A DNA stretch of 64,000 bases from an uncultured Gammaproteobacteria bacterium (GTDB lineage Bacteria > Patescibacteriota > Patescibacteriia > 2-12-FULL-57-11): positions 15,272 through 79,271 of the forward strand of contig CAZYLV010000002.1 of the NCBI GenBank assembly GCA_964648865.1. The letters are read 5' to 3'. Within the stretch, counting starts at the first letter, position 1. Each line of letters begins with the position of its first letter. Below are positions 1-61,135 of this stretch, one piece after another. A program made the translations under genes and the position numbers. Under the pieces are notes generated by a model, which saw only the letters and a list, made by a program, of their open reading frames with translations, was not told where the DNA came from and did not search any database.

Positions 1-1278
1 TTCACCCCGTCCACGGTGATCCGCATCACCGCCGGCGCGACCAAGGTCTTCAAGGTCACCGCGGACATCAAGTCCGGCGCGACCGCGACCGACGTCCAGG
101 GTGACGGCGTGGTCGACGTCGACAAGGTCTCCGCCACCGGCGTGACGACCGGCACCGACGTCTCGGACACGGACGGCAACGGCCCGACCGAGCTGCAGAA
201 CGCCTGGATCGCGACCAACGGCAACCTGTCGGTCTACCCCGACTCGGCCACGCCGGTCTCGACCACCCAGGTCCTCGGCTCGACGGCCAGCGAACTTGCC
301 CGCTTCAAGCTTGAAGCGACGGTCGAGGAGGACATCAACGTCACCAAGCTCGTCATCTCCGACGTGATGACGAACGGCGGTGCCACGGGCGCCACCGGTA
401 CGCTCAAGAACCTGAAGCTCATCGACGCCAGCACCGGTACCCAGTACGGTGGCGCGATCGCTTCGCTCGACAGCTCGAGCACGGGTTCGACGGTCACCCC
501 GGTCGCCATCTTCGACAACATCACGAACCTCCGGGTTCCGAAGAGCGGCTCCGTCACCATCAAGGTGGTGTCCGACCTCACGACCTACGTCGACGGCGGC
601 GTCTCCAGCTCGTCGCACAAGCTCGTCATCAAGCCTGACTTCGTCAACGCCGGCGGTGCGGAAGCGTCCAACCGCTCCATCGTCGCCACCGGCCAGGATT
701 CCGGCTTCTCGATCTCGAGCACGTCGCTGGACTACAACGCCAACTCGACGAACAGCAACACCGACGTCACGGTGAACACGAACGCGCACAACGCGTTCCG
801 CACCAAGATCACGATCGCCAAGCACTCGTCTGCCCCGTCCGGGACCACCACCGGTTCCGACGACCAGACGGTCGCCATCTTCGTGGTCTCGAACAGCGCG
901 AACGTCGGGAACTACTCGGCATCGCTCGAGCTCATGAACCTCGATATTGGTTCCACGATCTCCGCCACCACGGCGACCCGTGAGATCAAGATCTTCCATG
1001 ACTCGGTGCTGAGCGGTAACCAGCTGGCCTCGACCAACGCCCAGGTGAACGGCAACATCGCGAGCACCTCGTTCGCCGATGCGGACTTCACCAACAGCGA
1101 CATCTCGGCCGGCAGCTCGCGCAACTACTACGTGACGATCGACACCCAGGATGCCACGACGGACAAGCGCCTCACGGTGGGCCTTGCCACGGGTGACATC
1201 GAATGGGGCGACGGCGTGACGGCTTCCATCACGGTGGTCGACTCGCTGCCGGTCACGGGTAACACGCTGTCCTACTAA
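1..1278 (+). CDS. 5'-partial cell-surface protein, Thr/Ser/Asn/Asp/Gly-rich, low complexity (S-layer-like / glycoprotein substrate candidate)
   Basis: The ORF frame is open to base 1. Composition is dominated by T/S/G/N/D/V with several N-x-S/T sequons and no enzymatic motifs. A strong hairpin terminator follows immediately, implying a monocistronic, highly expressed gene. Confidence 0.5.
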   Translation, partial: FTPSTVIRITAGATKVFKVTADIKSGATATDVQGDGVVDVDKVSATGVTTGTDVSDTDGNGPTELQNAWIATNGNLSVYPDSATPVSTTQVLGSTASELARFKLEATVEEDINVTKLVISDVMTNGGATGATGTLKNLKLIDASTGTQYGGAIASLDSSSTGSTVTPVAIFDNITNLRVPKSGSVTIKVVSDLTTYVDGGVSSSSHKLVIKPDFVNAGGAEASNRSIVATGQDSGFSISSTSLDYNANSTNSNTDVTVNTNAHNAFRTKITIAKHSSAPSGTTTGSDDQTVAIFVVSNSANVGNYSASLELMNLDIGSTISATTATREIKIFHDSVLSGNQLASTNAQVNGNIASTSFADADFTNSDISAGSSRNYYVTIDTQDATTDKRLTVGLATGDIEWGDGVTASITVVDSLPVTGNTLSY

Positions 1279-1335
1279 TCCTAGGATCGCGTAAGGCCGG
1301 TCGTGTCGCCAAAGGGCGCGTCCCGCCGAACGACA

Positions 1336-1370
1336 AGACCCCCGGCCATGTGGCCGGGGGTCTTCGTATT
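1336..1370 (+). terminator. Rho-independent terminator after the surface-protein gene
   Basis: 13-bp perfect stem AAGACCCCCGGCC / GGCCGGGGGTCTT with a 4-nt loop, followed by a T-rich tail CGTATTT. Confidence 0.6.
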
Positions 1371-1407
1371 TACGGAGGGCCCTCGTTTTGGTACGGTGCG
1401 GCGGTCT

Positions 1408-3585
1408 ATGCGCGCCTCCGTCATCGCCCGTTGGCTCGGATACGTCTTGGCGACCGCTCCGGTCTGGTACGTCCCATGGACGTTGTTCCCCGCGGTCTTC
1501 GGCAAGATGCCGCTGGTGCTGCCGCTCATCGCGTTCTTCGGGATCCTCGCCTTGTCCGGACCGCGGCAGCCGCGGCAGCCGCGGCAGCCGCTCTCTTGGG
1601 CGATCCTGGCCTTCGGCGCCGCCGCGGCGCTCGCTGCCGCCCTCGGGGTCGACCCTGCGCAGAGCGCATGGGGGAGCGTCGCGCGCGGTACGGGACTCGT
1701 CGTGCTCGCGGCCTACGGCGTCTGGTATTGGGGTGCACGACGCGCGCTGGACGCGGAGGGTTGGCGCCGCTTCTTGGCCGTGGCCGTGGCTGCGGCCGTC
1801 GTGGAGGCGGCGATCGTGCTCGTCCAGGCCGCTACGGGCGCGGCGGCAGGGGAGGAGATCCGCGCCTCCGGACTTTTCGGCAATCCGACGTACGTCGCCG
1901 GGTACCTGGCGATCGCCGTCTTCCTGTGCGCGTCGGTCGCGACGGGAGGGAGCCGGATGCGCAAGACCATCGCTGCGCTGGCAGCCGCGACGATGGCCCT
2001 CGCGCTGGTGCTGACCGGCGCGCGCGGCGGCCTCGTGGCGTTGGTGGGCGGCGCGGCATGTGCCGTCGTGGCCTACGCCACGCTCGCCGGCGGCCGCACG
2101 CGGCGCTTCGCCCTCGGTGCATCGGGCGTCGGCCTGGCCGCGCTCGTGGCGCTTTCCCTCATCCCTCCGGATTCGTGGGCAGCGCTCGGCGCGCCCGCCG
2201 CCGTCGGCCGGACGCTCTATTGGCGCAACTACCTCGGGGACGTGCCCCGCCTCATCCAATGGGGAATCGCCTGGGAGGGGTTCCTGGAGCGCCCGTTCAC
2301 GGGTTGGGGACCGGAGACGTACCAGGCCGTGTTCGACGCCAAGTACAGCCCGGAGCTGCTGCGGTACTCCTTTTCCGAGACCGTCTCCGACAAGCCGCAC
2401 AACCTGCTCCTGGAGCTGCTCGTCGCCGGCGGTGCCGCGCTGGGCGCCGCCTTCGTCGCGGTGCTCGTCACGGCGCTGCTCGCGCTCCGCCGGGCGGCCC
2501 GCTCCGGAGCCGTGCGGCCGATGGAGGCCGCGGCGGCCGTCGGCGGGATGGCGGCCTTCGTCCTGCACGGCATGTTCCTCTTCGAGACCTTCCCCGCCGC
2601 GTTCCTCTTCGTCAGCATCCTGGCCTGGCTGGCGTCGCGGGCCTCGCAGGGGCTCACGGCCCCGGGACCTCGGCCGATCGCCGTCTGGGCGACGCGGATC
2701 GCACTCGCCGGATTCACCGTCCTCGCGTTCGTCGCGGGACCGCTCGCGGTGCGTGCCCAGTACGCCGCCCTGCTCACGCTCGAGGCCAAGACGACCCATG
2801 AATGGACCTCCCGTGCCCGGGCCGCGTTTTCCGCACCGACCGTCTATCATCGGGAGATCGTCAAACAGATCGCCCGCGACTTCCTCAACAAGAGCGCCGG
2901 GGCGCCGGAAGCGTTCGTGGTGGACACGCTGCCGCTGGTGCGCGATCAGGTGGTCGCCGCCGCCGCAGCCCATCCGCGCGATTTCACCTTGCGGTTCATG
3001 GAAGGGCAGCTCTGGGGGTTGAGCGGGAACCTCCAGCCGACGGCCGAAGAGATAGGGAAGGCCATGGACGCCCTTCGAAGCGCCGAAGCGCTCTCGCCAC
3101 GTCGGCAAGCGGTACGGTTCCAGATCGCCAAGACGCAGCTCCTGGCCGGGAACGCCGAGGAGGCCATCGCCACGCTGCGTGCCGTGGTGGCCGATGACGA
3201 CACGCTGCAGGAGCCGCACTGGTTCCTCGCGTTGGCGCTCGTCGCCGCCGGGCAGCGGGACGAGGGTGCGCAGGAGATCGCCCGCGCGCTCGAGCTCGGT
3301 CGGCTTGCGGCGATGGAATCCGTCCGTAACGTAAAGGAGATGCTCTACAGCATCGACGTCCTCGCGGCGGCCGGGCGGTTCGAGGCGATCGTGCCCGTCT
3401 ATCAGGCGCTCATCCGGATCGAACCCGACGACGCCGACTGGCATGCCCGACTCGCGGCGACCTACGAGCGGCTCGGCAGGCCCGAACTTGCGGCCATCGA
3501 GGCGCAGCGAGCCGCGGAGATCGAACCCTCCTTCCGCGATGCGGCCGACGCTTTCCTGCGTCGATTGGAGGACGCCGCCCCATGA
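1408..3585 (+). CDS. O-antigen ligase (Wzy_C)-domain polytopic membrane protein with C-terminal TPR repeats, paralog 1
   Basis: Multiple TM segments and a Wzy_C-like core (GLFGNPTYVAGYLA, WGPETYQAVFD, DKPHNLLLELL). The C-terminal ~250 aa are TPR-like repeats. The track ORF starts at 1303, but that lies inside the terminator, so the start was moved to the in-frame ATG at 1408. Confidence 0.7.
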   Translation: MRASVIARWLGYVLATAPVWYVPWTLFPAVFGKMPLVLPLIAFFGILALSGPRQPRQPRQPLSWAILAFGAAAALAAALGVDPAQSAWGSVARGTGLVVLAAYGVWYWGARRALDAEGWRRFLAVAVAAAVVEAAIVLVQAATGAAAGEEIRASGLFGNPTYVAGYLAIAVFLCASVATGGSRMRKTIAALAAATMALALVLTGARGGLVALVGGAACAVVAYATLAGGRTRRFALGASGVGLAALVALSLIPPDSWAALGAPAAVGRTLYWRNYLGDVPRLIQWGIAWEGFLERPFTGWGPETYQAVFDAKYSPELLRYSFSETVSDKPHNLLLELLVAGGAALGAAFVAVLVTALLALRRAARSGAVRPMEAAAAVGGMAAFVLHGMFLFETFPAAFLFVSILAWLASRASQGLTAPGPRPIAVWATRIALAGFTVLAFVAGPLAVRAQYAALLTLEAKTTHEWTSRARAAFSAPTVYHREIVKQIARDFLNKSAGAPEAFVVDTLPLVRDQVVAAAAAHPRDFTLRFMEGQLWGLSGNLQPTAEEIGKAMDALRSAEALSPRRQAVRFQIAKTQLLAGNAEEAIATLRAVVADDDTLQEPHWFLALALVAAGQRDEGAQEIARALELGRLAAMESVRNVKEMLYSIDVLAAAGRFEAIVPVYQALIRIEPDDADWHARLAATYERLGRPELAAIEAQRAAEIEPSFRDAADAFLRRLEDAAP

Positions 3586-5780
3586 TCCGTCGGTTCCGCG
3601 ACATCGCGCTTTTGGCGACGGCCTTCCTGCCGCTCGTCTTCGCCCGAGGGTTGGCGAACCCGTTCCTGACGCCACGTGAGATCGCCCTGCGTCTCATCCT
3701 GGCCGTCGCCTTGCCGCTCGCCGTAGCCGTCGCGCCGCAGCCGCGGCGGCCCGGGCCGCTCGGTGCCGCGGCGCTGGCGCTCCTTGCCGCGGCCGCAGCG
3801 GGGACCGTCTTTTCCGTCGACGTCGCCAACAGCACCTGGAGCAATCCTGAGCGGTTCACCGGTTTCCTTGATGTCGCGCTTGCCGTCGGGTATGGCGCCG
3901 CGCTCGCCCAGGCCTTCCGTGACACGCGGTTCCGGGCGCGCTTCCTGTGGCTGTGGATCGGCGTCTGGGCGGCGGTCTGCCTGTGGGCGCTCCTGGAGAA
4001 GGCCGTCCCCGGCTTCTGGGCGCAGTTCAACGGCGACGGTGCCCGCAGCGTGGCCACCATCGGCAACGCCATCTTCCTCGCCCACGGCATCATCCTCGCC
4101 ACGCCGCCCATCGTCGCGGCCCTCCGGATGCGTCCGGGCCGGGCGTGGCGCATCGCCTCCCGCGTGGCGTTGGGGCTGGCGGGAGCGGCTGTCCTCGCCA
4201 CCGGCACGCGCGGCGCGCTGCTCGGTGTCTTGGCTGGGGGCGCCGTCGCCGCGATGGCCTACGCCGCATGGTCCCGGCACCGTGCCGCCCGCGTCGCTGC
4301 CGTGGCCGTGCCGCTCGCCTGTCTGCTTGCCCTGGGCGGGATGTTCCTTGCGCGGGACGTGCCCGGTCTGCAGGAAGTGCCGGTCGTCGGCCGCGTGCTG
4401 GCCGTGTTCCAGCGCGACGCCAGCACCGTCCAACGCCTCCAGCTGTGGGGCGTGGCGCTCGAGGCGGTCCGCCAGAGGCCGCTTACGGGCTGGGGACCGG
4501 AGAACTTCGATACCGCCCTGGACCGCAACTACGACACGGCCCTCACGCGGTACGGGGTCAACCAATCGTTTTCGGACCGTGCCCACAACGGCCTGCTCGA
4601 CGTGGCCGCGGCGTACGGGCTCCTCGGCGTCGCCGCATACCTCGCGTTCCTCGGCGCGCTCGGTCGGACGGTGCTGCGTGCGCGTCAGTCCGGGGCCGCG
4701 CCGGCGCCTGTCGCGGCCGTGCTCCTCGGCGGGCTTGCGGCCTACCTTGTGACCTCGCTTACCGCCTTCGACTCCCAGATCACGCTTCTCGGCCTGGCGG
4801 TCTTCGCGGCCTTCGTCGCCGCACTCGGTCGGGAAACCCAGGCGGCGTCCCTCCCGTTCCAGGCGGGGGCGAAGCGGGCCATGCTCGCCGCGGCCGCGGC
4901 CGTCCCGATGGCCGTCGTCGCGTGGAGCGTGGTGCCGCTTGCGCGCGGCGCGCAGCTCGTCCATGTGGCCGTCGTCGCGCCGCAGGACGCCGCGCTGCAG
5001 GAGACCGCCGCGTCCCTCCTGACGTTCGCCAATCCATACCGAGCCATCCAGGGGCAGCGTATCGCCAACGAGATCTTCAAGCGCGTCGGCAACGCGCCGA
5101 CCTTCCTGCCGTCGCATGCGGACGGACTGCGCGCCGCTGAGGCGTTGCTGCGCGACGCCGTCGTCCGCCGCCCGGGGAACTTCAGCGCCCGATACACGCT
5201 CGCCAATGTCCTGCTGCTCCAGGCGGTCAACGGCATGCGTCCGCATGAGGATGCCCTGGCCGTCTTCGAGGAGGCGCGGGTCCTTGCGCCGCGACGCCAG
5301 ATGGTCGACCTCCAGATCGGCAACCTCCACCTCACCCGCGGCGACGGCGCGGCGGCGGAAGCGTCCTTCCGGGCGGCAGTGGCCCTGGACCCGACGGTTC
5401 CGGAGGTCCACTGGCATTGGGGGCGGGGGCTGGCGGTGATGGGCGATCTGGAGCGGGCTGCGCAGGAGTTCCGCGTCGCCTGGGAATCGGGTTTGCGGCA
5501 GGTGCGTCCCGAGCAGGAGTACGCCACGGCATATGCCGCGCTCCAGGCTGCCGGCGACCTGGCGACCATCCGCGACATCACGCGCTTCCGATCCGAGAAC
5601 GACACGCAGGACCCGGACCTTTTCGCGTCGCTCGCCGCGGTGCACGCGGCGCTCGGCGAGCGCGAGGAGGCCATCGCGGCGCTGCTGCGCGCCGTCGCCC
5701 TCGACCCTGCGCTGCGCGCGGAGGCGCTGCTGTTCCTGCGCCAGAACGGGTATCCTGAAGACGTCCTCCCACCCCTATGA
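3582..5780 (+). CDS. O-antigen ligase (Wzy_C)-domain membrane protein with C-terminal TPR repeats, paralog 2
   Basis: Same architecture as paralog 1 (WGPENFDTALDRNYD, DRAHNGLLDVAAAYG; TPR tail). ATGA overlap with the upstream gene. Confidence 0.7.
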   Translation: MIRRFRDIALLATAFLPLVFARGLANPFLTPREIALRLILAVALPLAVAVAPQPRRPGPLGAAALALLAAAAAGTVFSVDVANSTWSNPERFTGFLDVALAVGYGAALAQAFRDTRFRARFLWLWIGVWAAVCLWALLEKAVPGFWAQFNGDGARSVATIGNAIFLAHGIILATPPIVAALRMRPGRAWRIASRVALGLAGAAVLATGTRGALLGVLAGGAVAAMAYAAWSRHRAARVAAVAVPLACLLALGGMFLARDVPGLQEVPVVGRVLAVFQRDASTVQRLQLWGVALEAVRQRPLTGWGPENFDTALDRNYDTALTRYGVNQSFSDRAHNGLLDVAAAYGLLGVAAYLAFLGALGRTVLRARQSGAAPAPVAAVLLGGLAAYLVTSLTAFDSQITLLGLAVFAAFVAALGRETQAASLPFQAGAKRAMLAAAAAVPMAVVAWSVVPLARGAQLVHVAVVAPQDAALQETAASLLTFANPYRAIQGQRIANEIFKRVGNAPTFLPSHADGLRAAEALLRDAVVRRPGNFSARYTLANVLLLQAVNGMRPHEDALAVFEEARVLAPRRQMVDLQIGNLHLTRGDGAAAEASFRAAVALDPTVPEVHWHWGRGLAVMGDLERAAQEFRVAWESGLRQVRPEQEYATAYAALQAAGDLATIRDITRFRSENDTQDPDLFASLAAVHAALGEREEAIAALLRAVALDPALRAEALLFLRQNGYPEDVLPPL

Positions 5781-7981
5781 GCGAACGCCTGGAACGTCTC
5801 TGTCTCGTCGTCCTGCGCTACGGCTTGCCGTTGGCGTTCTTGACGCCCTTCCTCTACACCACCGACGTGACCTTCCCGTTCGTGGTCAGCAAGGTCTGGA
5901 GTTTCCGCGCGCTGGTCGAACTGCTCGTGCCCTTCTATGCGGTGCTGACGATCGTCTCGCCGCGCCACCGCCCGTGGCGCGAGCCGTTGCCGCTGGCCGT
6001 CGTGGCCTTCATGGCCGTCTTGCTGCTCTCCACGGCCTTCGGGGTCGATCCCGCGCGCAGCATCTGGTCCAACCACGAGCGCATGACCGGCGTCTACACG
6101 TTGCTGCACTACGCGGCGTTCTTCCTGATGGTGCGCGCCGCCTACACGACGGCGCGTCAGACAAAGGCCCTGCTTCTCTCGACGCTTGCCGCAAGCGTGG
6201 TCATGACGGGACTGGCGCTGTATGAGCGCAGCCATCCCGGCTTCCTGGCCAACACCGGGAACCGGCCGTGGGCCACGCTCGGCAACACCATCTACCTGGC
6301 CAACTACCTGCTGTTCCATCTCTTCTTCGCGGCGCTCGTGGCCTTCCGCCGCGACACGCGCCTGTGGTTGCGGGTCGCGCTCGGCGCCTTGGCGGCCGCG
6401 CAGACGCTCGTCATCCTCTACACGCAGACCCGCGGCACGCTCTTGGCCGTCCTCGTCACCGCGGCGGTCCTGGGGCTCTGGGCCGCGGCGCGCCAGAAGC
6501 GTCTGCGTCCGTGGGCGGCAGGCGCCTTCGTCGCCTTGGCGCTGGTCGGCGGCGTCCTCTACGTGAACCGCGGGCAGGACTGGGTCGGCGACATCCCCGG
6601 CGTCGGCAAGCTGGTGCGCACCACGCTCACCGAGGGTGGCGGCGTGCGCACGCGCATCATCGCCTGGGAAATCGCGCTCGAGGCGTTCGTCGAGCGGCCG
6701 TTGCTCGGGTGGGGGCCGGAGAACTTCTACTACGCCTTCAACCGTTTCTATAATCCGGAGTCGTATCGGTACGGCTCGTATGAGACGTGGTTCGACCGCT
6801 CGCACAACACGCTGCTCGACGTGCTTTCGATGACCGGGGCGCTGGGCATGTTGGCGTACCTGGCGGTGTTCGCCGTGGCCGTCTGGACGGTGGAGCGCCG
6901 CATCAAGGCCCGGGACATGCGCCGTTGGGAGGGGATGCTCTCGGTGGGCATGCTGCTCGCCTACGTCGTCCAGAACCTGACGGTCTTCGACGCGCACACG
7001 TCCTACCTCTACTTCTATCTGCTGCTCGCCCTCATCGCGGCCCGGCCGCTGCCCGAAGGCGGCGCGGCGACGGAGGGGCGCGTCCGGGCGGGGTTGGTGG
7101 CATTGCCGCTGCTGCTCGTCGGCGGGATCGTCCTGGCCATCGTCACCGACCTCCAGCCGTACGATGCCAACCGTCTGGCGTTGCGCGGCACGGCGGCGCT
7201 GCGCCTGCGCGGCGATGCGGCCGCCGCCATCGTACAGTACGACAAGGCCCTGGCGACGCCGACGCCGCACGACGTGGACCTGCGCGCCGACGGTGCGCGG
7301 GAGATCGCCGATGCCGTGGCCGGCGGGCGGCTGCCGCAGGCGCAGGTGCGGCCGTCCGTGGAGTGGGCCATCGCGCGCGTCGAGGAGAACCGCGCGGCGC
7401 GGTCGGACGTCTACGACGCCATCATCTACGCCGAACTGCTCCAGGACGCGGCGGCGTGGGATCCCACCGCCACGGCGCGCGCGCGGCAGGCGCTCGACGA
7501 GGCCTGGGCGCTCTCGCCGGACCGTCAACAGATCGTCTTCACCATGGCGCAGCTGGCCCTCTTCGACGGTCGGCCGCAGGACGCGTTGGACGTGCTTGAG
7601 GCGTCGTTGACCAAGGAAGAGCGCGTCCGCGACCTGCACTGGAACCTGGCGTTGGCCGCGCACGGCGTCGGCGATTACGGAAAGGCGGCCCGGGCCATCG
7701 CCCGGGCGCGCGAGCTGGGGTACGAATGGCGCAGCGCCTCGGACGTGACCTTCGCGGTCGACGTCTTCCGGAAGTCCGGACGCCTGGACGACGCGCTCGC
7801 CGGCGCGCAGCTGTTGGTGTCGGCGTTGCCCGACGAGCCGCGCGCCCATCTGCTGCTGGCGGAAGTCCACGTCGACAGGGGCGATGCCGACCAGGCCGAG
7901 GCGGCCATCGCACGCGCCGTGGCGCTCGATCCGAGCCTGGCGCCGCAAGCGGCGGTCCTGCGCGCCCGGCTCAGCCAGTGA
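5777..7981 (+). CDS. O-antigen ligase (Wzy_C)-domain membrane protein with C-terminal TPR repeats, paralog 3
   Basis: Same architecture (WGPENFYYAFNRFYNPESYRYGSYETWFDRSHNTLLDV; TPR tail). ATGA overlap with the upstream gene. Confidence 0.7.
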   Translation: MSERLERLCLVVLRYGLPLAFLTPFLYTTDVTFPFVVSKVWSFRALVELLVPFYAVLTIVSPRHRPWREPLPLAVVAFMAVLLLSTAFGVDPARSIWSNHERMTGVYTLLHYAAFFLMVRAAYTTARQTKALLLSTLAASVVMTGLALYERSHPGFLANTGNRPWATLGNTIYLANYLLFHLFFAALVAFRRDTRLWLRVALGALAAAQTLVILYTQTRGTLLAVLVTAAVLGLWAAARQKRLRPWAAGAFVALALVGGVLYVNRGQDWVGDIPGVGKLVRTTLTEGGGVRTRIIAWEIALEAFVERPLLGWGPENFYYAFNRFYNPESYRYGSYETWFDRSHNTLLDVLSMTGALGMLAYLAVFAVAVWTVERRIKARDMRRWEGMLSVGMLLAYVVQNLTVFDAHTSYLYFYLLLALIAARPLPEGGAATEGRVRAGLVALPLLLVGGIVLAIVTDLQPYDANRLALRGTAALRLRGDAAAAIVQYDKALATPTPHDVDLRADGAREIADAVAGGRLPQAQVRPSVEWAIARVEENRAARSDVYDAIIYAELLQDAAAWDPTATARARQALDEAWALSPDRQQIVFTMAQLALFDGRPQDALDVLEASLTKEERVRDLHWNLALAAHGVGDYGKAARAIARARELGYEWRSASDVTFAVDVFRKSGRLDDALAGAQLLVSALPDEPRAHLLLAEVHVDRGDADQAEAAIARAVALDPSLAPQAAVLRARLSQ

Positions 7982-9077
7982 GACGGCGGTAGAGGGCGAG
8001 GGTCTCGCGGAGCGCGCGCTGCTCGGTGAAGAGCGTGTGCACGGTCTCGGCGGCGGCCTTGCCGACGCGCGGCCAGGCGTCCCGCGCCGCGAAGGCGCGC
8101 CGCAGGCCGTCGTCGAGCGCGTCCGTCCGCGTCAGCCACCCGTTCATGCCGTCGGCGATGACGCTGGGGATGCCGCCGACCGACGTCGCCAGGCACGGCA
8201 GCCCGGCCTCCATGGCCTCCAGCAAAGCGAAGGGCAACCCTTCTTTCTTCGACGGCAGGACGAAGAGATCGAAGCCGTCCATGAGCCGGCGGGCATCGTC
8301 GCGCCCGCCGAGCAGGTGCACGCGGCTGCCCAGCGCCGCCGCGGCCTGCTCCACCGCGGGCCGCTGCTCGCCGTCACCGACGAGCACCAGATGCGCGTCC
8401 GCGGGAGCGGCTTCGGCGAAGGCCGCGACCAGCGCCGGGACGTTTTTCGTGGGGAAGAGATTGGCGACGCAGCCGATGCACGTCGCGTCCGTCGGGACGC
8501 CGGCCAGCGCCAGCGCCGCGCGGGCAGCGGCGCGATCGTGCGCGACGGGCGCCACGCCGTTGGGGATGACGTGCAGCCGGTCTGCGGGCGAGACCTTGGC
8601 CGCGAGTGCCGCGGCGCGCTCCTGCGGCGACAGGACGATCGTGGCGTCCCGCCCGAGCCCGGCGATCCGTTCCATCCAGCGGTACAACGGGCCTGGGCGA
8701 TCGGGCTCCAGGAAGACCCACCCATGGGCGGTGAAGACGTGCTTGGGAGCCAGGCCGACGAGCGCCAGCGTGGCCAACAGCCCCGCCTTGGAGGAATTGC
8801 CGTGGACCACGTCGGGACGCAGCTCGCGGACGAGGCGGCGCAGCTCCCGCGTGGCGTGCAGGTCGGCGAGCGGGCGCAGCGCGCGTACCAGCGAGGGCAA
8901 CGCGCGGTAGGAGATGCCGGCGGCGGCGCAGGAGGCCGCGAGCGGACCCGTGCCACCGGCGGCGACCGTCACCGTCCAGCCCTGCGCCGCCGCGGCGCGC
9001 GCCAGGGCGAGGACGTAGCGCTGCGCGCCCCCCAGGGAGGGGCTCGTCACGACCAGCAGCAGGGAGGGGGAGCGCAT
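7971..9077 (-). CDS. GT4-family glycosyltransferase
   Basis: GT-B / GT4 C-terminal motif FVLPSKKEGLPFALLEAMEAGLPCLATSVGGIPSVIADGMNGWL. Confidence 0.8.
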   Translation of the reverse strand: MRSPSLLLVVTSPSLGGAQRYVLALARAAAAQGWTVTVAAGGTGPLAASCAAAGISYRALPSLVRALRPLADLHATRELRRLVRELRPDVVHGNSSKAGLLATLALVGLAPKHVFTAHGWVFLEPDRPGPLYRWMERIAGLGRDATIVLSPQERAAALAAKVSPADRLHVIPNGVAPVAHDRAAARAALALAGVPTDATCIGCVANLFPTKNVPALVAAFAEAAPADAHLVLVGDGEQRPAVEQAAAALGSRVHLLGGRDDARRLMDGFDLFVLPSKKEGLPFALLEAMEAGLPCLATSVGGIPSVIADGMNGWLTRTDALDDGLRRAFAARDAWPRVGKAAAETVHTLFTEQRALRETLALYRRLTG

Positions 9078-9132
9078 TGACGGATGGCCAAGAATGCCCC
9101 ATCATACGCAGGAAATCGTCCTGCCGACAACG

Positions 9133-10119
9133 ATGCCTCATGTCCCGTACGGCAACCTCAAAGGGGCCACCGTCCTGGTGACCGGCGCCGCCGGTTTCAT
9201 CGGCTCCCATCTCGTCGATCGGCTCTTGGCCCTCGGCGCGTTCGTGGTGGGCGCGGACAACCTCTCGACCGGCCGCATGGAGAACCTGGCGGGCGCCCGC
9301 AAGGACGAGCGCTTCACCTTCGTCCGTGCCGACGTCAACCGCTTCGAGGAGGTCGCCCAGATCTTCTCCGCGCATCGCATCGACTACGTCTTCCACTACG
9401 CGGCGGTGGTCGGCGTGCAGAACGTCATCGAGCGGCCGCTCGAGGTGTTCAAGGACCTCGACGGCATCAAGTACCTGCTCGCCCTCTCGCACGCCCACCG
9501 CGTCAAGAAGTTCGTCTTCGCCTCGTCGTCGGAGGCCTACGGCGAGCCGGTGGAGCTGCCGGAACGCGAAGAGGGCATCCTCAACGTCAACGCCGACGAT
9601 CCCTACGGGCTGACCAAACTGGTGGGGGAGAACATGGTCCGCAACTACTGGCGCCGGTTCCGGCTGCCCGGCTGTTCGCTGCGGTTCTTCAACGTCTACG
9701 GCCCGCGGCAGAACGCCACGCCCTACGGTTTCGTCGTCGGCATCTTCATCACACGCGCCCTGGCGGGCGAGCCGCCGGTCATCTTCGGCGACGGCACGGC
9801 GACGCGTGACTTCGTCTACGTCGACGACAACGTCGAAGCGGCGATCCGCGCCCTGCTGCTCGAGACGACCAACGGACAGACGCTCAACGTCGGCAGCGGC
9901 AACCAGACCACCGTCGGCGAGCTCGCGGCGCAGGTGGTGACCTTGTCCGGCAAGGCGCTGCGCCCGATGCGCGAGCCGGAGCGCGCCATCGAGGTCAAGT
10001 ACCGCTGTCCGGACGTCACCAAGATGCGCGAGCTGCTCGATTTCGAGCCGCAGGTGCATCTCCAAGAGGGACTGCGGCGGACCTTCGACTGGTACCGGTC
10101 CGGTGCCCATGGCTCCTGA
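9133..10119 (+). CDS. NAD-dependent nucleotide-sugar epimerase/dehydratase (SDR family)
   Basis: VLVTGAAGFIGSHLVDRL Rossmann motif and a YxxxK catalytic region. An alternative start lies at 9094. Confidence 0.8.
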   Translation: MPHVPYGNLKGATVLVTGAAGFIGSHLVDRLLALGAFVVGADNLSTGRMENLAGARKDERFTFVRADVNRFEEVAQIFSAHRIDYVFHYAAVVGVQNVIERPLEVFKDLDGIKYLLALSHAHRVKKFVFASSSEAYGEPVELPEREEGILNVNADDPYGLTKLVGENMVRNYWRRFRLPGCSLRFFNVYGPRQNATPYGFVVGIFITRALAGEPPVIFGDGTATRDFVYVDDNVEAAIRALLLETTNGQTLNVGSGNQTTVGELAAQVVTLSGKALRPMREPERAIEVKYRCPDVTKMRELLDFEPQVHLQEGLRRTFDWYRSGAHGS

Positions 10120-12364
10120 ATCGACCATCATCCTTTTCTCCGCTTTCTACGACCCGTGGATGAGCGGCGCGGAACGGTGCGTGCAGGAAGTGGTAGGACG
10201 GCTCTCGGGCCGCTACCACTTCACGCTTTTTACGTGCCGTCTCTCCCGGACCGTCCCGGCGCGCGAGTCGCGGTCGGGGCATGAGATCGTCCGTCTCGGC
10301 GTCGGGCATCCGATCGACAAGTGGCTCTTCCCGCTCCTGGCGCCGCTGGCCGCCCTGCGCGTCCGCGCCGCGGTCGCCCACGCGGTCATGGAGTCCTACG
10401 CCGGCATCGCGCTGTGGGTCCTGTGCCTGCTGCGTCCGCGCATGCGCACCGTGCTCACCCTCCAGAGCGGCGACCTGGACAACGACGCCAAGCAGCGGCG
10501 CATCCCGGCCTGGCTGTGGCGGCGTATCCACCGCTCGCCCGACCGCGTGACGGCCATCAGCCGCTTCCTCGCCGACCGTGCGGTCCGTCTCGGCGCCGAT
10601 CCCGTGCGGGTCTCGGTCATCCCCAACGGCGTGGACCTTTCTCGCATCACCCCGCAGCGCCCTGCGGAGCGGGTGGCGCACCGCATCGTCTGCGTGGCGC
10701 GCCTCTCCTGGGAGAAGGGCCTGGGCGAGCTGCTCGAGGCCCTGGCGATCGTCCGTCGCGACGTGCCGGACGCGCACCTGGTGCTCGTCGGGGAGGGCAA
10801 GGAGCGCATCGCCCTCGAGGCCAAGGCGCGTGCGCTGGGCGTCGCGCCGGCGGTCGATTTCCGCGGCGCGTTGCCGAATGCCGAGGCGCTCGCCGTGCTG
10901 CGGACCGCGGACGTCTTCGCCTGCCCGTCGCGGGCCGAGGGGCTCGGCATCGTTTTCATCGAGGCGCAGGCCTGTGGCGTGCCGCCGGTCGGCACGCGCG
11001 TGGGCGGCATCCCCGACGTCATCCAAGACGGGAAGAACGGCCTGCTCGTGCCGCTCGAGGACGCCGAGGCGCTCGCCGCGGCATTGATGCGCGTCATGAA
11101 GGAATCCGGATTGCGGGAACGCCTGGTCGCCGGAGCACGGGAGACGCTGGCGCGTTTCGATTGGCAGGGGATCGTCGAGCACTACGCCGCGCTTTACGGC
11201 CGTCTCCTGCAGGGGCGTTCCGTGCTCATCGCCACCGGCATCTACCCGCCGGCGGTCGGCGGCCCGGCGACCTATACGTACACGCTCGCGCCGCGGCTCG
11301 TGGAGCGCGGCTGGCGCGTGCGCATCGTCACCTATGGCGACGCCGCGACGCGGAAGACCGGCCACGACGGCGCGGCGCTTCATGTGGTGTCGCGCGTCCT
11401 GCCGCCGGGCCTCCGGCATCTCGCCTATCTCCTTTCCGCGTTCCGCCGCGCGCGCGACGCCGATCTGGTATACGCCCAGGACCCCGTCTCCTCCGGCTTG
11501 CCTGCCTCCCTCGCGGCGTTCCTGCGGCGCCGACGGTTCGCCATCAAGGTCGTCGGCGATCATGCCTGGGAGCAGGGACAAGCGCGGTTCGGGGTGCGTG
11601 CGTTGCTCGATGATTTCCAGAAGCGGCGCTTCGGGTTCCGCGTCGAGCTGCTCCGCGCCGTCCAGCGCTTCGTCGTCCGCCGCGCGGCCCGCGTCATCAC
11701 GCCGAGCCGGTACCTTGCGGGCATCGTCGCGCAGTGGGGCGTTCCGGAAGCACGGGTGCGCGTGGTGGAGAACGCCGTGCATGCCATGGACGTCCCGACG
11801 CCGCCGGATGCCGAGGCGCTCGCGGCGCGCACGCCGGAGATCGTCAGCGCCGGACGCTTCCTGCCGTGGAAGGGGATGTGGGAACTCGTCGGCGCCCTGC
11901 CTGCCGTCCGTGCCCGGGTGCCCGGCGCGCGTTTGACCCTCATCGGCGACGGGCCCGAGCGCCCCCGCATCGAGGCCGAGGTCGCGCGGCTCGGACTCGG
12001 GGATGCGGTGACGTTCACCGGCCGCTTGCCGCAGCCGGAGGCGTTCGGCCGCGTCGCTGCCGGGCGCGTCTTCGTGCTCTACACGGGCTACGAAGGGTTC
12101 TCGCACCAGCTCGTCGAGGCCATGTCCAGCGGCGTGCCGGTCGTCGCCAGCGACGCCGGCGGGAACCCCGAGGTCGCGGCGCACGAGCGGAACGCGTTGG
12201 TCGTGCGCTGGGGCGATGCGGCCGCGCTCACCGCGGCCATCGTGCGGCTGCTTGAGGACGCGGCGCTCAGCGCGCGTCTCGCGGCCGAAGCGCGCAAGAC
12301 GGCGGCCCTGTATCCCGAAGAGCGCATGGTCTCCGGGACCGTGGATGCGCTGTCCGACTTTTGA
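10103..12364 (+). CDS. Tandem double GT4 glycosyltransferase (two complete GT4 domains in one 753-aa polypeptide)
   Basis: The first GT4 signature is CPSRAEGLGIVFIEAQACGVPPVGTRVGGIPDVIQDGKNGLLV. The second is YTGYEGFSHQLVEAMSSGVPVVASDAGGNPEV. The reading frame is continuous. Confidence 0.75.
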   Translation: MPMAPESTIILFSAFYDPWMSGAERCVQEVVGRLSGRYHFTLFTCRLSRTVPARESRSGHEIVRLGVGHPIDKWLFPLLAPLAALRVRAAVAHAVMESYAGIALWVLCLLRPRMRTVLTLQSGDLDNDAKQRRIPAWLWRRIHRSPDRVTAISRFLADRAVRLGADPVRVSVIPNGVDLSRITPQRPAERVAHRIVCVARLSWEKGLGELLEALAIVRRDVPDAHLVLVGEGKERIALEAKARALGVAPAVDFRGALPNAEALAVLRTADVFACPSRAEGLGIVFIEAQACGVPPVGTRVGGIPDVIQDGKNGLLVPLEDAEALAAALMRVMKESGLRERLVAGARETLARFDWQGIVEHYAALYGRLLQGRSVLIATGIYPPAVGGPATYTYTLAPRLVERGWRVRIVTYGDAATRKTGHDGAALHVVSRVLPPGLRHLAYLLSAFRRARDADLVYAQDPVSSGLPASLAAFLRRRRFAIKVVGDHAWEQGQARFGVRALLDDFQKRRFGFRVELLRAVQRFVVRRAARVITPSRYLAGIVAQWGVPEARVRVVENAVHAMDVPTPPDAEALAARTPEIVSAGRFLPWKGMWELVGALPAVRARVPGARLTLIGDGPERPRIEAEVARLGLGDAVTFTGRLPQPEAFGRVAAGRVFVLYTGYEGFSHQLVEAMSSGVPVVASDAGGNPEVAAHERNALVVRWGDAAALTAAIVRLLEDAALSARLAAEARKTAALYPEERMVSGTVDALSDF

Positions 12365-13419: not shown

Positions 13420-14139
13420 ATGACCTACTCCTTCATCATCCCCGCCTACAACGAGGAATCCGCCATCGCCGAAGCGATCGCGGCGGTCTTGGCGTACGCC
13501 GACCGGCTGGGCGACGCCGAGCTCGTCGTCGTCGACGACGGGTCGACGGACGCCACGGCGGCGCGCGTCGCGGCGGTCCGCGATCCGCGCCTGCGGCTCA
13601 TCCGCCTGCCGCAGAACCGCGGCAAGGGCGCGGCGGTGCGCGCCGGCATGCTCGCGGCCGCGGGGGAGTGGCGCATCTTCTTGGATGCCGACCTCTCGAC
13701 GCGCCCGGAGGAATTCGAGTCCTTCCGCCCGCATCTCGCTGCCGCCGACGTGCTGGTGGGGTCGCGCGCGGTGCCCGGTGCCCGCATCGCCGTGCGTCAG
13801 CCCTTTTGGCGCGAGCAGGGCGGCCGCGTCTTCAACCGCGCGGTCCAACTCCTGCTCGATCTCCCCATCCGCGATACCCAGTGCGGCTTCAAGTGCTTCT
13901 CGGCGCGCGCGGTGCCGGCCTTCGCCGAGACGCGCACCGACGGCTGGGCCTTCGACGCCGAGGTTCTGGTCCGCGCCCACCGCGGCGGTCTGCGCGTCCG
14001 GGAGCTGCCGGTGGCCTGGCGCCACGACCCGACGAGCCATGTGCGCCTCTCCGGCATCGCCCGGGCGGTCATCGACCTCCTGCGCATCCGCCGTTTGACC
14101 CGGGCCGCGAAACCGCCTATGGTGGAGGGTCCGCTATGA
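13420..14139 (+). CDS. GT2 glycosyltransferase, polyprenyl-phosphate sugar synthase-like (DPM1/Ppm1-like)
   Basis: IIPAYNEE...VVDDGSTDAT...NRGKGAAVRAG...LDADLS motifs. Confidence 0.8.
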   Translation: MTYSFIIPAYNEESAIAEAIAAVLAYADRLGDAELVVVDDGSTDATAARVAAVRDPRLRLIRLPQNRGKGAAVRAGMLAAAGEWRIFLDADLSTRPEEFESFRPHLAAADVLVGSRAVPGARIAVRQPFWREQGGRVFNRAVQLLLDLPIRDTQCGFKCFSARAVPAFAETRTDGWAFDAEVLVRAHRGGLRVRELPVAWRHDPTSHVRLSGIARAVIDLLRIRRLTRAAKPPMVEGPL

Positions 14140-18077: not shown

Positions 18078-18125
18078 GGTGACGCGTCCGCCCGTTTCCG
18101 ATACACTGCGACCCGACTCCAGGAT

Positions 18126-20245: not shown

Positions 20246-20307
20246 ACCGCATGGCCGCCGTCAACGCTTGACAGCGGCCTTCCGCCGCGGGAAACTGCCT
20301 GCGTTTT

Positions 20308-27280: not shown

Positions 27281-27290
27281 ACCGACAGAT

Positions 27291-29703: not shown

Positions 29704-29706
29704 GCC

Positions 29707-39610: not shown

Positions 39611-39629
39611 ACCGACCTGATCCAACCAT

Positions 39630-41273: not shown

Positions 41274-41274
41274 T

Positions 41275-43708: not shown

Positions 43709-43764
43709 AGACTGGGGGCAACTCACGGGCGATGATAGCACCGTCCCAGGACGGTGTCGATGGT

Positions 43765-47463: not shown

Positions 47464-47466
47464 CCT

Positions 47467-52391: not shown

Positions 52392-52408
52392 GGTCTTCAC
52401 GCGCTTCC

Positions 52409-53107: not shown

Positions 53108-53111
53108 GCAT

Positions 53112-56978: not shown

Positions 56979-57011
56979 ATCTGGGCTCCATCCTGGCCCA
57001 TCCGGGCAGCC

Positions 57012-57040: not shown

Positions 57041-57060
57041 CGCGCGGAACCCCTGTGGAC

Positions 57061-60216: not shown

Positions 60217-60228
60217 GCGCGGTCGCGT

Positions 60229-61134: not shown

Positions 61135-61135
61135 T

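What the first reader, a model, noticed from the sequence alone, without database searches (positions are those of the whole stretch)
1..7981. Thr/Ser-rich surface protein followed by three tandem Wzy_C-TPR paralogs: candidate protein O-glycosylation system
The 5' gene encodes a low-complexity T/S/N/D-rich secreted protein with its own strong terminator, which looks S-layer- or adhesin-like. Three consecutive ~730-aa paralogs follow, each combining an O-antigen-ligase/Wzy_C polytopic domain with a C-terminal TPR array; TPR arrays are protein-recognition modules.

Wzy_C is the catalytic domain of bacterial O-oligosaccharyltransferases (PglL/PilO, S-layer WsaB). TPR-fused, triplicated versions next to a candidate glycoprotein, two DPM1-like lipid-sugar synthases and a GT-C-like membrane protein point to en-bloc or stepwise O-glycosylation of the surface protein rather than LPS O-antigen ligation. 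Three paralogs could have different glycan or acceptor specificities.
Basis: inference. Interest (0 to 1): 0.65.

Follow-up and report, generated by a model that had tools for sequence, protein, structure and literature searches.

The report
Surface protein plus three glycan ligases
In an uncultivated ultra-small (Patescibacteria) bacterium, the gene for a large sugar-acceptor-like surface protein is followed by three related membrane enzymes that probably attach lipid-carried sugar chains to it; this arrangement is conserved across the phylum but the acceptor is not yet proven.

Summary
Window 1-1278 encodes the last 425 residues of a 1,244-aa secreted, acidic protein with 25% Ser+Thr. It is predicted to fold into beta-sandwich domains, so it is not low-complexity. 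A conserved intrinsic terminator follows it. Three translationally coupled paralogs come next (1408-3585, 3582-5780, 5777-7981), each a Wzy_C domain plus TPR repeats.

The organism is a ~70% GC Patescibacterium, a phylum generally described as lacking LPS (my knowledge, not tested). The paralog-3 model (pLDDT 94) has a WaaL-like core, a 13th transmembrane helix and seven TPR pairs placed outside the cell. Family-invariant R219/R293/H343 align with E. coli WaaL R215/R288/H338, so these look like ligase/oligosaccharyltransferase-type enzymes.

The order ECF sigma, DUF5667, surface protein, Wzy_C-TPR recurs in relatives from 39 to 70% GC. Tandem Wzy_C arrays sit directly after the surface-protein gene in 10 of 11 cases, against 1 of 40 for solitary copies. 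Other lineages carry a stand-alone membrane-anchored TPR protein at that position.

This supports functional coupling with the surface protein, much like the Firmicute S-layer enzymes WsfB and WsaA/WsaB. The protein acceptor itself is unproven. PglL-specific domains are absent, and a wall-glycopolymer ligase or polymerase role remains possible.

The parts
1..1278 (+). 3' third (residues 820-1244) of the gene for a 1,244-aa secreted, acidic, Thr/Ser-rich, all-beta surface protein. It belongs to a Patescibacteria-specific family with no Pfam domain and is a candidate S-layer or adhesin protein and candidate glycan acceptor.
   Evidence: 100% identical to P0122 residues 820-1244. More than 338 homologs, all from Patescibacteria, about 1,150-1,350 aa, unnamed. 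No Pfam or NCBIfam hit. Composition. AlphaFold pLDDT 80.6, all-beta. Foldseek finds tandem Ig-like adhesin domains.
1335..1371 (+). Intrinsic terminator: 13-bp stem AAGACCCCCGGCC / GGCCGGGGGUCUU, loop AUGU, tail CGUAUUU.
   Evidence: Read from the sequence. Fold of the intergenic region gives -66.8 kcal/mol, z = -3.4. Equivalent hairpin plus U-tract at the same position in L001, L004, L006, L008, L014 and L031, with different sequences.
1408..3585 (+). Paralog 1 (725 aa): WaaL-fold Wzy_C membrane domain plus C-terminal TPR domain. A lineage-specific extra copy.
   Evidence: Pfam Wzy_C E 4.5e-14, plus TPR_19 and TPR_11. Catalytic residues retained. Orthologs in the same position in L001, L004 and L006 (46-70% identity).
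3582..5780 (+). Paralog 2 (732 aa): Wzy_C plus TPR. Its start overlaps the stop of paralog 1 (ATGA).
   Evidence: Pfam Wzy_C E 8.6e-21, plus TPR_2. Overlap read. Orthologs at 50-67% identity in L001, L004 and L006.
5777..7981 (+). Paralog 3 (734 aa): the conserved 'canonical' Wzy_C-TPR of Patescibacteria. It has 13 TM helices, a catalytic outer loop at about 266-345 (R293, P308, G311, G313, D340, H343) and seven TPR pairs at 481-733.
   Evidence: Pfam. AlphaFold pLDDT 94.2, pTM 0.91. Best PDB match is WaaL 7tpg, E 3.2e-7, TM 0.69. Invariant residues. Alignment to E. coli WaaL R215/R288/H338. All 67 Wzy_C-TPR genes outside the listed arrays best match this paralog.
7971..9077 (-). Convergent GT4 glycosyltransferase, a conserved neighbour of the last Wzy_C-TPR gene.
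   Evidence: Pfam GT4. Same gene in the same position in L001, L004, L006, L007, L008, L009, L010, L014-16, L031 and L037. Best NCBIfam match TIGR03088, below cut-off.
9094..12364 (+). NAD-dependent sugar epimerase/dehydratase (9094-10119) and a double-GT4 protein (10103-12364). This is the start of a glycan-assembly cluster of about 55 kb that is syntenic in relatives.
   Evidence: Pfam. Same order in L004, L006 and L007.
13420..14139 (+).
   Evidence: Pfam Glycos_transf_2. Best NCBIfam matches are PgfS, AglJ, Dol-P-hexose transferase, ArnC and PpgS, all below cut-off.
27273..27995 (+). Second GT2 of 240 aa resembling polyprenol-phosphate sugar synthases.
   Evidence: Best NCBIfam matches are ArnC (E 6.6e-23), PpgS, AglJ and Dol-P-hexose transferase, below cut-off.
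32448..34271 (+). The assignment is unverified.
   Evidence: No Pfam or NCBIfam hit. Only one homolog in 5.8 billion proteins. Sequence. At least 7 hydrophobic segments.
44700..46052 (+). Wzx-type (Polysacc_synt) flippase candidate for the lipid-linked glycan.
   Evidence: Pfam PF01943 E 1.1e-10. 8 hydrophobic segments.

Best explanation
The window opens inside the gene for a conserved Patescibacterial cell-surface protein. It is 1,244 aa, has a Sec signal peptide, is acidic and 25% Ser+Thr, and is built of tandem beta-sandwich domains. In relatives this gene is preceded by an ECF sigma factor and a DUF5667 membrane protein, and it ends in a conserved intrinsic terminator.

Three translationally coupled enzymes follow. 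Each has a WaaL-type 12-helix core and a 13th transmembrane helix that carries a seven-repeat TPR domain to the outer face of the single membrane.

Proposed mechanism:
1. Glycans are built on a polyprenol pyrophosphate carrier by the adjacent ~55-kb cluster. That cluster holds GT4 and GT2 enzymes and pathways for nonulosonic acid, phosphonate, inositol phosphate, methyl and sulfate groups.
2. The glycans are flipped by the Wzx-like protein.
3. The Wzy_C domain transfers them en bloc. The invariant Arg219 and Arg293 hold the pyrophosphate, and His343 serves the acceptor hydroxyl.
4. The most likely acceptor is Ser, Thr or Tyr on the neighbouring surface protein, which the TPR domain captures as the protein leaves the Sec channel.

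Paralog 3 is the phylum-wide enzyme. Paralogs 1 and 2 are lineage-specific additions that probably handle different glycans or sites.

What is shown: domain architecture, fold, conserved residues, predicted topology and conserved gene linkage. What is inferred: the donor, the acceptor and the role of the TPR domain.
For: - Architecture: Wzy_C plus TPR in all three paralogs.
- Fold: model pLDDT 94.2 with 13 TM helices and 14 TPR helices. The best PDB match is the WaaL ligase 7tpg.
- Catalytic residues: invariant R219/R293/H343 align with E. coli WaaL R215/R288/H338, which equal PglL R224/R298/H349. The spacing R293-P308-G311-G313 equals the published PglL R298-P313-G316-G318. Those glycines are reported as conserved in PglL but not WaaL. 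This comparison is by residue number, not by alignment.
- Polymerases: no alignment to the E. coli polymerases WzyE or WbbH.
- Topology: positive-inside charge distribution puts the TPR domain outside.
- Taxonomy: every homolog that carries a source name is from Patescibacteria; that this phylum lacks LPS is my own knowledge, not tested here.
- Synteny: sigma, DUF5667, surface protein, Wzy_C-TPR, GT4 recur in L001-L006, L008, L014, L016, L031, L037, L094 and L097, at 39-70% GC and about 29% identity.
- Arrays: 10 of 11 arrays lie next to the surface-protein gene, against 1 of 40 solitary genes, Fisher p = 9e-9.
- Stand-alone, membrane-anchored TPR proteins sit directly after the surface-protein gene in L094, L095 and L096.
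- Precedents: WsfB (Wzy_C + TPR) and WsaA (TPR) + WsaB (Wzy_C) in S-layer glycosylation; TfpW next to pilA; substrates encoded beside TfpO, TfpM and PglS.
- Acceptor composition is S-layer-like.
Against: - There is no experimental or proteomic evidence of glycosylation.
- The PglL_A and Wzy_C_2 domains are absent, and Wzy_C alone cannot separate oligosaccharyltransferases from ligases.
- The hhalign probability against WaaL is low (3.6%, single-sequence template).
- A strong conserved terminator separates the surface-protein gene from the enzymes.
- Most paralog-3-like genes are solitary, beside a flippase at the end of a glycan cluster and far from any surface-protein gene.
- L095 and L096 have the surface-protein gene but no Wzy_C within 9 kb.
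- The surface protein lacks the flexible Ser/Ala/Pro-rich segments typical of PglL targets. The Bacteroidetes D-S/T-hydrophobic motif is not enriched (10 observed against 10.6 expected).
- No initiating phosphoglycosyltransferase was found in the window.
- The synteny counts are not phylogenetically independent.
Confidence: 0.45

Rival explanations
1. Wall-glycopolymer machinery. The Wzy_C-TPR proteins polymerise a lipid-linked repeat unit, or ligate it to a non-protein acceptor such as a membrane glycolipid or peptidoglycan. The product would be a secondary-cell-wall-polymer-like glycan. The surface protein is encoded next door because it binds that polymer non-covalently through its duplicated N-terminal domain, as S-layer proteins bind wall polymers in Firmicutes.
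For: - Solitary paralog-3-like genes sit directly after a Wzx or ABC flippase at the end of glycan clusters, which is the classic Wzx/Wzy arrangement.
- A Wzx-like gene is present in the window.
- The Pfam Wzy_C family also contains polymerases.
- No other polymerase and no LCP ligase was seen in the window.
- The surface protein has a duplicated N-terminal ~100-aa module that recurs in another surface protein, L096 526 aa, as expected of a wall-binding domain.
- TPR domains also act as polysaccharide-export scaffolds (reference cited).
Against: - The catalytic residues and the best structural match are ligase-type (WaaL), not polymerase-type.
- No Wzz-like chain-length regulator is present in the window.
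- This model does not explain why extra paralogs appear almost only next to the surface-protein gene.
- It does not explain why a bare TPR protein occupies that position in other lineages.
Confidence: 0.3
2. Division of labour or a general glycosylation system. Paralog 3 would be a broad-spectrum oligosaccharyltransferase or ligase serving many envelope targets, pilins included. Paralogs 1 and 2 would have other roles, for example one polymerase-like and one dedicated to the surface protein. The TPR domains would act mainly as chaperone or scaffold for export and assembly of the surface protein rather than for acceptor selection.
For: - Paralog 3 orthologs are near-universal and usually unlinked to the surface-protein gene.
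- Paralogs 1 and 2 are only 31-33% identical to paralog 3, and their orthologs are confined to close relatives.
- L007 has pilin and prepilin-peptidase genes about 5 kb upstream of its Wzy_C-TPR, and L084 has pilin-motif ORFs directly downstream.
- Stand-alone TPR proteins occur without a Wzy_C domain.
Against: - All three paralogs keep every invariant catalytic residue, so none looks like a non-enzymatic scaffold.
- Pilin motifs are rare near the 80 loci examined.
Confidence: 0.2
3. Conventional O-antigen ligases or polymerases acting on lipid A-core, as the database name 'O-antigen ligase family protein' suggests.
For: Pfam Wzy_C hit and WaaL-like fold. Source annotations read 'O-antigen ligase family protein'.
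Against: - All relatives are Patescibacteria, a phylum generally described as having no outer membrane or LPS pathway (my own knowledge, not tested here).
- No lipid A or core genes occur in the 64-kb window.
- The extra TM helix and TPR domain are absent from WaaL.
Confidence: 0.03

Closest known systems
WsfB of Paenibacillus alvei and WsaA/WsaB of Geobacillus stearothermophilus (S-layer protein O-oligosaccharyltransferases of monoderm Firmicutes)
   Same: - WsfB is a Wzy_C membrane domain with a C-terminal TPR.
- In G. stearothermophilus the TPR is a separate small protein (WsaA) next to Wzy_C (WsaB). This mirrors the fused and split forms seen here after the surface-protein gene.
- The genes lie in a glycan cluster next to the structural surface-protein gene.
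- The P. alvei cluster also has an asparagine-synthase homolog and a glycerophosphotransferase-like gene, as this window does.
   Different: - The acceptor here belongs to an unrelated, uncharacterised protein family with no SLH or other known anchor domain.
- There are three tandem paralogs instead of one.
- Glycosylation is not demonstrated.
PglL/PglS, TfpO (PilO) and TfpM O-oligosaccharyltransferases of Gram-negative bacteria
   Same: - Wzy_C / WaaL-like core.
- Conserved Arg/Arg/His.
- The Pro-x-x-Gly-x-Gly spacing reported for PglL.
- The substrate gene is often adjacent.
   Different: - No PglL_A or Wzy_C_2 domain.
- A 13th TM helix plus a ~250-aa TPR domain.
- The phylum is generally described as monoderm (my knowledge, not tested here).
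- The putative substrate is a giant beta-rich protein rather than a pilin.
WaaL O-antigen ligase (PDB 7tpg; E. coli WaaL)
   Same: Best structural match (TM 0.69 on WaaL). R215/R288/H338 align with the invariant R219/R293/H343.
   Different: - By general knowledge (not tested here), the phylum has no lipid A-core acceptor.
- Extra TM helix and TPR domain.
- Only 22% identity, and the sequence profile does not find WaaL in the PDB.
TPR-bearing GT-C protein glycosyltransferases (P. aeruginosa TfpW; human TMTC1-4) and OGT
   Same: The design logic is the same: a glycosyltransferase fused to a TPR domain on the side where the protein acceptor is met. tfpW lies directly downstream of its substrate gene pilA. 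The TPR domain here resembles the OGT TPR in Foldseek.
   Different: The catalytic fold differs (GT-C or GT-B against WaaL-type), and so does the donor chemistry.
PEP-CTERM/exosortase-associated EPS loci (NCBIfam TIGR03097 PEP_O_lig_1, TIGR02917 PrsT, TIGR03088, TIGR03108)
   Same: The Wzy_C domain, the TPR, the convergent GT4 and the AsnB-like amidotransferase each find their best or near-best NCBIfam match in this set.
   Different: All scores are far below the curated cut-offs. No exosortase or PEP-CTERM signal was seen. The resemblance is a lead only.

Membership tests
Wzy_C / WaaL-like superfamily (Pfam PF04932) | Significant match to the Wzy_C model | tested here: met
   52.9, 74.7 and 65.2 bits against a gathering score of 31.7.
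Wzy_C / WaaL-like superfamily (Pfam PF04932) | WaaL-type polytopic fold with a large outer loop between TM9 and TM10 | tested here: met
   AlphaFold model pLDDT 94.2. Foldseek top hit is 7tpg_B WaaL, E 3.2e-7, TM(target) 0.69.
Wzy_C / WaaL-like superfamily (Pfam PF04932) | Arg/Arg/His residues essential in WaaL (R215, R288, H338) and conserved in PglL | tested here: met
   R219, R293 and H343 are invariant in 40 family members and in all nine sequences in A3 (the three window paralogs and their orthologs in L001 and L004). They align to the WaaL residues. The hhalign probability is low.
WaaL (LPS O-antigen ligase) | The organism makes lipid A-core as acceptor | not testable with these tools
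   Only 64 kb of the genome is available. No lpx or waa genes occur in the window. Homologs are all from Patescibacteria, which established knowledge describes as lacking LPS.
WaaL (LPS O-antigen ligase) | 12-TM protein without an extra domain | tested here: not met
   13 TM helices plus a TPR domain of about 250 aa.
PglL/PglS-class O-oligosaccharyltransferases | PglL_A (PF15864) and Wzy_C_2 domains flanking Wzy_C | tested here: not met
   Neither is listed at E <= 0.01 in the Pfam scan. They are named as the defining domains.
PglL/PglS-class O-oligosaccharyltransferases | PglL-conserved P313, G316 and G318 after R298 | tested here: inconclusive
   The spacing R293-P308-G311-G313 is identical (against the residue numbers). 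It was compared by numbering only, not by an alignment to PglL.
PglL/PglS-class O-oligosaccharyltransferases | Transfers glycan to Ser/Thr of a protein | not testable with these tools
   Needs glycoproteomics or a reconstituted assay.
S-layer O-oligosaccharyltransferases (WsfB / WsaB type) | Wzy_C domain with a C-terminal or adjacent TPR module | tested here: met
   Stand-alone TPR variants in L094-L096. The feature is described.
S-layer O-oligosaccharyltransferases (WsfB / WsaB type) | Encoded in a glycan cluster beside the structural surface-layer protein gene | tested here: inconclusive
   Adjacency to a conserved surface protein is shown. That this protein forms an S-layer is not shown.
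S-layer O-oligosaccharyltransferases (WsfB / WsaB type) | Sequence homology to WsfB or WsaB | not tested
Wzy O-antigen/ECA polymerases | Similarity to characterised polymerases | tested here: not met
   No meaningful hhalign alignment to E. coli WzyE or WbbH. This is a limited test, because polymerases are very diverse.
Wzy O-antigen/ECA polymerases | Wzx flippase and Wzz co-polymerase partners | tested here: inconclusive
   A Wzx-like gene is present. No Wzz-like gene is in the window.
Known S-layer protein families (for the 5' gene) | SLH, CWB2 or another recognised anchor or lattice domain | tested here: not met
   No Pfam or NCBIfam hit even at E <= 1. No PDB relative by profile search.

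The most novel reading that the evidence does not exclude
The ~1,250-aa protein family would be the long-sought main surface-layer protein of Parcubacteria-type Patescibacteria. The outward-facing TPR module, fused to Wzy_C or free-standing, would be its dedicated receptor and would hand the nascent protein to WaaL-fold oligosaccharyltransferases. In this lineage three paralogs would each attach a chemically different glycan made by the 55-kb cluster (for example nonulosonic-acid-, phosphonate- or inositol-phosphate-bearing). The result would be a combinatorially glycosylated coat controlled by a dedicated ECF sigma / DUF5667 pair.
Probability: 0.2. Interest if true: 0.8.

Novelty: new variant of a known kind. 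Interest (0 to 1): 0.6.

Why it matters
Patescibacteria make up a large share of bacterial diversity, are almost entirely uncultivated, and live attached to other cells. Their surface is therefore central to their biology, yet its main components are not identified.

This analysis nominates a conserved gene module: ECF sigma, DUF5667, a ~1,250-aa surface protein, and a TPR or Wzy_C-TPR protein. It is a candidate for the major surface protein together with its modification machinery.

It also explains why a phylum generally regarded as lacking LPS carries so many 'O-antigen ligase' genes. If protein O-glycosylation is confirmed, it would extend the WsfB/PglL type of en-bloc O-glycosylation to this phylum. 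It would also add TPR-guided enzymes to the toolbox for glyco-engineering.

I found no description of this module in the searchable literature.

Tried and rejected
- Contig look-up of the window's own protein P0001: not on record. I worked from relatives instead.
- Profile searches against PDB sequences. With the full-length family only TPR proteins came up. With the membrane domain alone nothing significant came up. The WaaL relationship appeared only through fold comparison and a targeted hhalign.
- The search for related loci with two alignments of the surface protein failed, because no stretch was conserved enough. The reverse synteny test was done with four contig look-ups instead.
- The Bacteroidetes O-glycosylation motif D-(S/T)-(A/I/L/V/M/T) is not enriched in the surface protein.
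- Pilin association: pilin-like N-terminal motifs are rare near the 80 loci. A dedicated pilin-glycosylation reading was therefore not adopted.
- The GT-C claim for the 607-aa membrane protein gave no family hit and only one homolog.
- LPS O-antigen ligase reading: rejected on taxonomy and architecture.
- The long minus-strand ORFs in 1-7981 (for example 4742-7948) were rejected as high-GC shadow ORFs by codon-position GC.
- Rfam and tRNA scans of the window found nothing.
- Literature searches for DUF5667, for WsfB, and for Parcubacteria or CPR with O-antigen ligase found nothing relevant beyond the S-layer glycome review.
- The profile search of the surface protein against the PDB found nothing.

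Full report
**What is in the sequence**

The window is about 70% GC, and nearly all genes lie on the + strand.

Positions 1-1278 encode the last 425 residues of a protein that runs off the 5' end. The sequence is identical to residues 820-1244 of P0122, a 1,244-aa protein from the same 150-kb NCBI contig as the window's paralog 3.

P0122 begins with a typical Sec signal peptide. It has 25.4% Ser+Thr, against 9.2% in 21 other window genes. It is acidic (117 D+E against 73 K+R) and has two cysteines. It has no long Ser/Thr runs.

AlphaFold models the window part as folded all-beta domains (pLDDT 80.6). These resemble the tandem Ig-like domains of Gram-positive surface adhesins such as BspA, AspA, SpaP and PrgB.

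The gene is followed by a 13-bp GC-rich hairpin with a tetraloop and a U-rich tail at 1335-1371. An equivalent hairpin plus U-tract follows the orthologous gene in six relatives whose sequences and GC content differ. This is a conserved intrinsic terminator.

**The three paralogs**

The genes are 1408-3585 (725 aa), 3582-5780 (732 aa) and 5777-7981 (734 aa). For paralog 1, the start at 1408 fits the 725-aa ortholog in L001 better than GTG 1303.

Each matches Pfam Wzy_C above threshold and carries C-terminal TPRs. They are 31-33% identical to each other. Their frames overlap by ATGA, which implies translational coupling.

A 40-sequence family alignment has ten invariant positions: R102, G105, N170, R219, R293, P308, G311, G313, D340 and H343, in paralog-3 numbering. 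All are kept in the three paralogs and their orthologs.

The AlphaFold model of paralog 3 is very confident (pLDDT 94.2, pTM 0.91). It shows 13 transmembrane helices. The last one continues as a long stalk into 14 helices, which form seven TPR pairs.

Its best match among solved structures is the WaaL O-antigen ligase 7tpg (E 3.2e-7, TM 0.69 on WaaL). TPR proteins, including the OGT TPR domain, follow.

A profile of the membrane domain aligns 142 columns with E. coli K-12 WaaL. This places R219, R293 and H343 on WaaL R215, R288 and H338 (the probability is low because the template is a single sequence). Those are the residues essential in WaaL and conserved in PglL as R224, R298 and H349.

The spacing R293-P308-G311-G313 equals the published PglL spacing R298-P313-G316-G318, and those glycines are reported as PglL-specific. 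This is a comparison by numbering only.

The same profile does not align with the E. coli polymerases WzyE or WbbH. The PglL_A and Wzy_C_2 domains that mark PglL/PglS enzymes are absent.

Charge distribution follows the positive-inside rule for an N-in topology. The catalytic loop at 266-345 lies outside, and the 13th helix takes the TPR domain outside as well.

**Organism**

All homologs of paralog 3 and of the surface protein come from Patescibacteria. The named groups include Uhr-, Magasanik-, Kaiser-, Giovannoni-, Falkow- and Komeilibacteria and Paceibacterota.

By established knowledge, these bacteria have no outer membrane and no LPS. The database name 'O-antigen ligase' therefore cannot describe the real function.

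**Gene neighbourhood**

In close relatives (L001/2, L004/5, L006; 55-81% identity) the order is ECF sigma, DUF5667 protein, ~1,270-aa surface protein, three Wzy_C-TPR genes, convergent GT4, epimerase, double GT4.

In L008 the enzyme is 29% identical and the surface protein is 29% identical over 1,173 columns (E 2e-78). The same sigma, DUF5667 and surface-protein unit is there, followed by a peptidase, a single Wzy_C-TPR and the same convergent GT4.

I scanned 80 loci from GTDB species representatives with my own HMMs:
- Tandem arrays of 2-4 Wzy_C genes lie directly downstream of a surface-protein homolog in 10 of the 11 arrays that have enough upstream sequence.
- Solitary genes do so in 1 of 40 cases.
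- Fisher p = 9e-9, although the loci are not phylogenetically independent.

All 67 Wzy_C-TPR genes outside the arrays I listed best match paralog 3. In arrays, the last gene, next to GT4, is the paralog-3-like one. Paralog 3 is therefore the phylum-wide enzyme, and paralogs 1 and 2 are additions found beside the surface-protein gene.

Solitary copies sit at the end of glycan clusters, immediately after a Wzx or ABC flippase.

I also started from four distant surface-protein homologs. All four have an ECF sigma factor upstream, and three (L094-L096) also have HTH_17(-) and a DUF5667-annotated protein; in L097 the genes at those two positions carry no Pfam hit. Downstream they differ:
- Wzy_C-TPR plus a stand-alone TPR protein (L094).
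- A stand-alone TPR protein only (L095, L096).
- Wzy_C-TPR 3 kb away, followed within about 2 kb by a phosphoglycosyltransferase gene (L097).

The stand-alone TPR proteins of L094 and L096 have an N-terminal membrane anchor (the L095 gene call starts with no such segment), and all three match the TPR part of the family HMM. The element most consistently found after the surface-protein gene is thus an outward-facing TPR module, fused to Wzy_C or not.

The module persists from 39% to 70% GC.

**Rest of the window**

The following ~55 kb is one large glycan cluster. It contains:
- many GT4 and GT2 enzymes;
- two ~240-aa GT2s whose best matches are polyprenol-phosphate sugar synthases, below cut-off;
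- a Wzx-like flippase;
- an AsnB-like amidotransferase;
- genes for nonulosonic-acid, phosphonate, inositol-phosphate and sulfate-activation pathways;
- many methyltransferases.

No initiating phosphoglycosyltransferase, Wzz or LCP gene was found in the window.

**Interpretation**

Four things are shown: a WaaL-fold enzyme with the ligase/oligosaccharyltransferase catalytic residues, an extracytoplasmic TPR domain, a phylum generally regarded as lacking the classical acceptor (from my own knowledge, not tested here), and conserved genetic coupling to a surface-protein family.

The closest precedent is S-layer O-glycosylation in Firmicutes. WsfB is Wzy_C plus TPR. WsaB is Wzy_C with a separate TPR protein, WsaA, encoded next to it. 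Both lie in glycan clusters beside the S-layer gene. Substrate genes are also commonly adjacent to TfpO, TfpM, PglS and TfpW.

I therefore favour en-bloc O-glycosylation of the neighbouring surface protein, with the TPR domain as the acceptor-binding module and the paralogs differing in glycan or site (confidence about 0.45).

The main rival (about 0.3) is that the enzymes polymerise or ligate a wall glycopolymer that the surface protein binds through its duplicated N-terminal domain. The flippase-adjacent position of solitary copies fits that model. The array-to-surface-protein linkage and the stand-alone TPR proteins fit it less well.

A mixed or general-glycosylation model is also open (about 0.2). 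A conventional LPS role is effectively excluded.

**Novelty**

Wzy_C plus TPR enzymes acting on surface proteins are known, so this is a variant of a known kind. New elements are the phylum, the uncharacterised acceptor family, the sigma/DUF5667 control unit, the fused or split TPR pattern, and the tandem expansion.

I found no description of this module in the searchable literature. All functional steps beyond architecture, fold, conserved residues, topology and synteny are inference and need the experiments listed above.

Noticed in passing
window 39621-43496: A phosphonate biosynthesis set sits inside the glycan cluster. It comprises PEP mutase fused to a nucleotidyltransferase domain (39621-41273), phosphonopyruvate decarboxylase (ending 42384; TIGR03297 346 bits, above the cut-off of 312.5) and an Fe-dependent alcohol dehydrogenase (ending 43496). 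This suggests a phosphonate-decorated surface glycan, which would be unusual for Patescibacteria.
   Followed up: partly
window 18881-20260 (-) and 47464-48936 (+): A myo-inositol-1-phosphate synthase occurs together with a fusion of a CDP-alcohol phosphatidyltransferase domain and a HAD phosphatase, plus several MobA-like nucleotidyltransferases. This points to inositol-phosphate (CDP-inositol-type) chemistry in the same cluster.
   Followed up: no
window 55213-58272: Nonulosonic-acid genes: a NeuB-like synthase (-), a CMP-sugar cytidylyltransferase (-) and a hydrolysing UDP-GlcNAc 2-epimerase-like gene (+). A similar NeuB set lies next to the solitary Wzy_C-TPR gene in L089.
   Followed up: partly
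window 60217-63114: Sulfate-activation genes (a CysD-like PAPS_reduct domain, a CysN-like GTPase and a second PAPS_reduct-domain ORF) lie at the end of the cluster. The distant relative L008 has sulfotransferases in its cluster. Sulfated glycans are therefore possible.
   Followed up: no
whole window; L001, L004, L006: About 70% GC is very high for Patescibacteria. The closest relatives are 65-70% GC, while the same gene module occurs in genomes of 39-58% GC. The proteome here is correspondingly rich in Ala and Arg.
   Followed up: partly
window 1219-1275 (C-terminus of the surface protein): A conserved C-terminal tail, (V/I)(D/N)SLPxxGxTL(S/T)Y-COOH, is present in the closer half of the family. 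In this protein it reads LPVTG, like a sortase motif, but no membrane anchor follows. It may be a sorting, assembly or recognition signal.
   Followed up: partly
outside the window: L001 1-1624, L004, L006, L008, L014, L016, L031, L037, L094-L097: The surface-protein gene is always preceded by an ECF sigma factor and usually by a ~400-aa DUF5667 protein (no Pfam hit on the 282-aa gene at that position in L097). Often a divergent HTH_17 gene is present too. This looks like a dedicated sigma/anti-sigma-like control unit. No paper in the library mentions DUF5667.
   Followed up: partly
L094 15203-15901, L095 13288-14022, L096 12794-13477: Stand-alone TPR proteins of about 230-245 aa lie directly downstream of the surface-protein gene in lineages where no Wzy_C is fused; those of L094 and L096 have an N-terminal membrane anchor. 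They resemble the TM13 plus TPR part of the enzymes.
   Followed up: partly
P0122 residues ~33-230 (outside the window); L096 13497-15077: The surface protein starts with two copies of a ~100-aa module (AGDLIK..VYY..DGKRYVFPN..TY.SWY.DF). The same module occurs at the C-terminus of an unrelated 526-aa secreted protein in L096. It may be a Patescibacterial cell-wall-binding domain, and it has no Pfam model.
   Followed up: no
window 32448-34271: A 607-aa polytopic membrane protein with a soluble C-terminal domain has only one homolog in 5.8 billion proteins and no family hit.
   Followed up: partly
window 18078-18857, 29704-30348, 31420-32451, 43711-44691, ~52400-55171: At least seven SAM-dependent methyltransferase genes are scattered through the cluster, along with a formyltransferase and a polysaccharide deacetylase. 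This implies a heavily tailored glycan.
   Followed up: no
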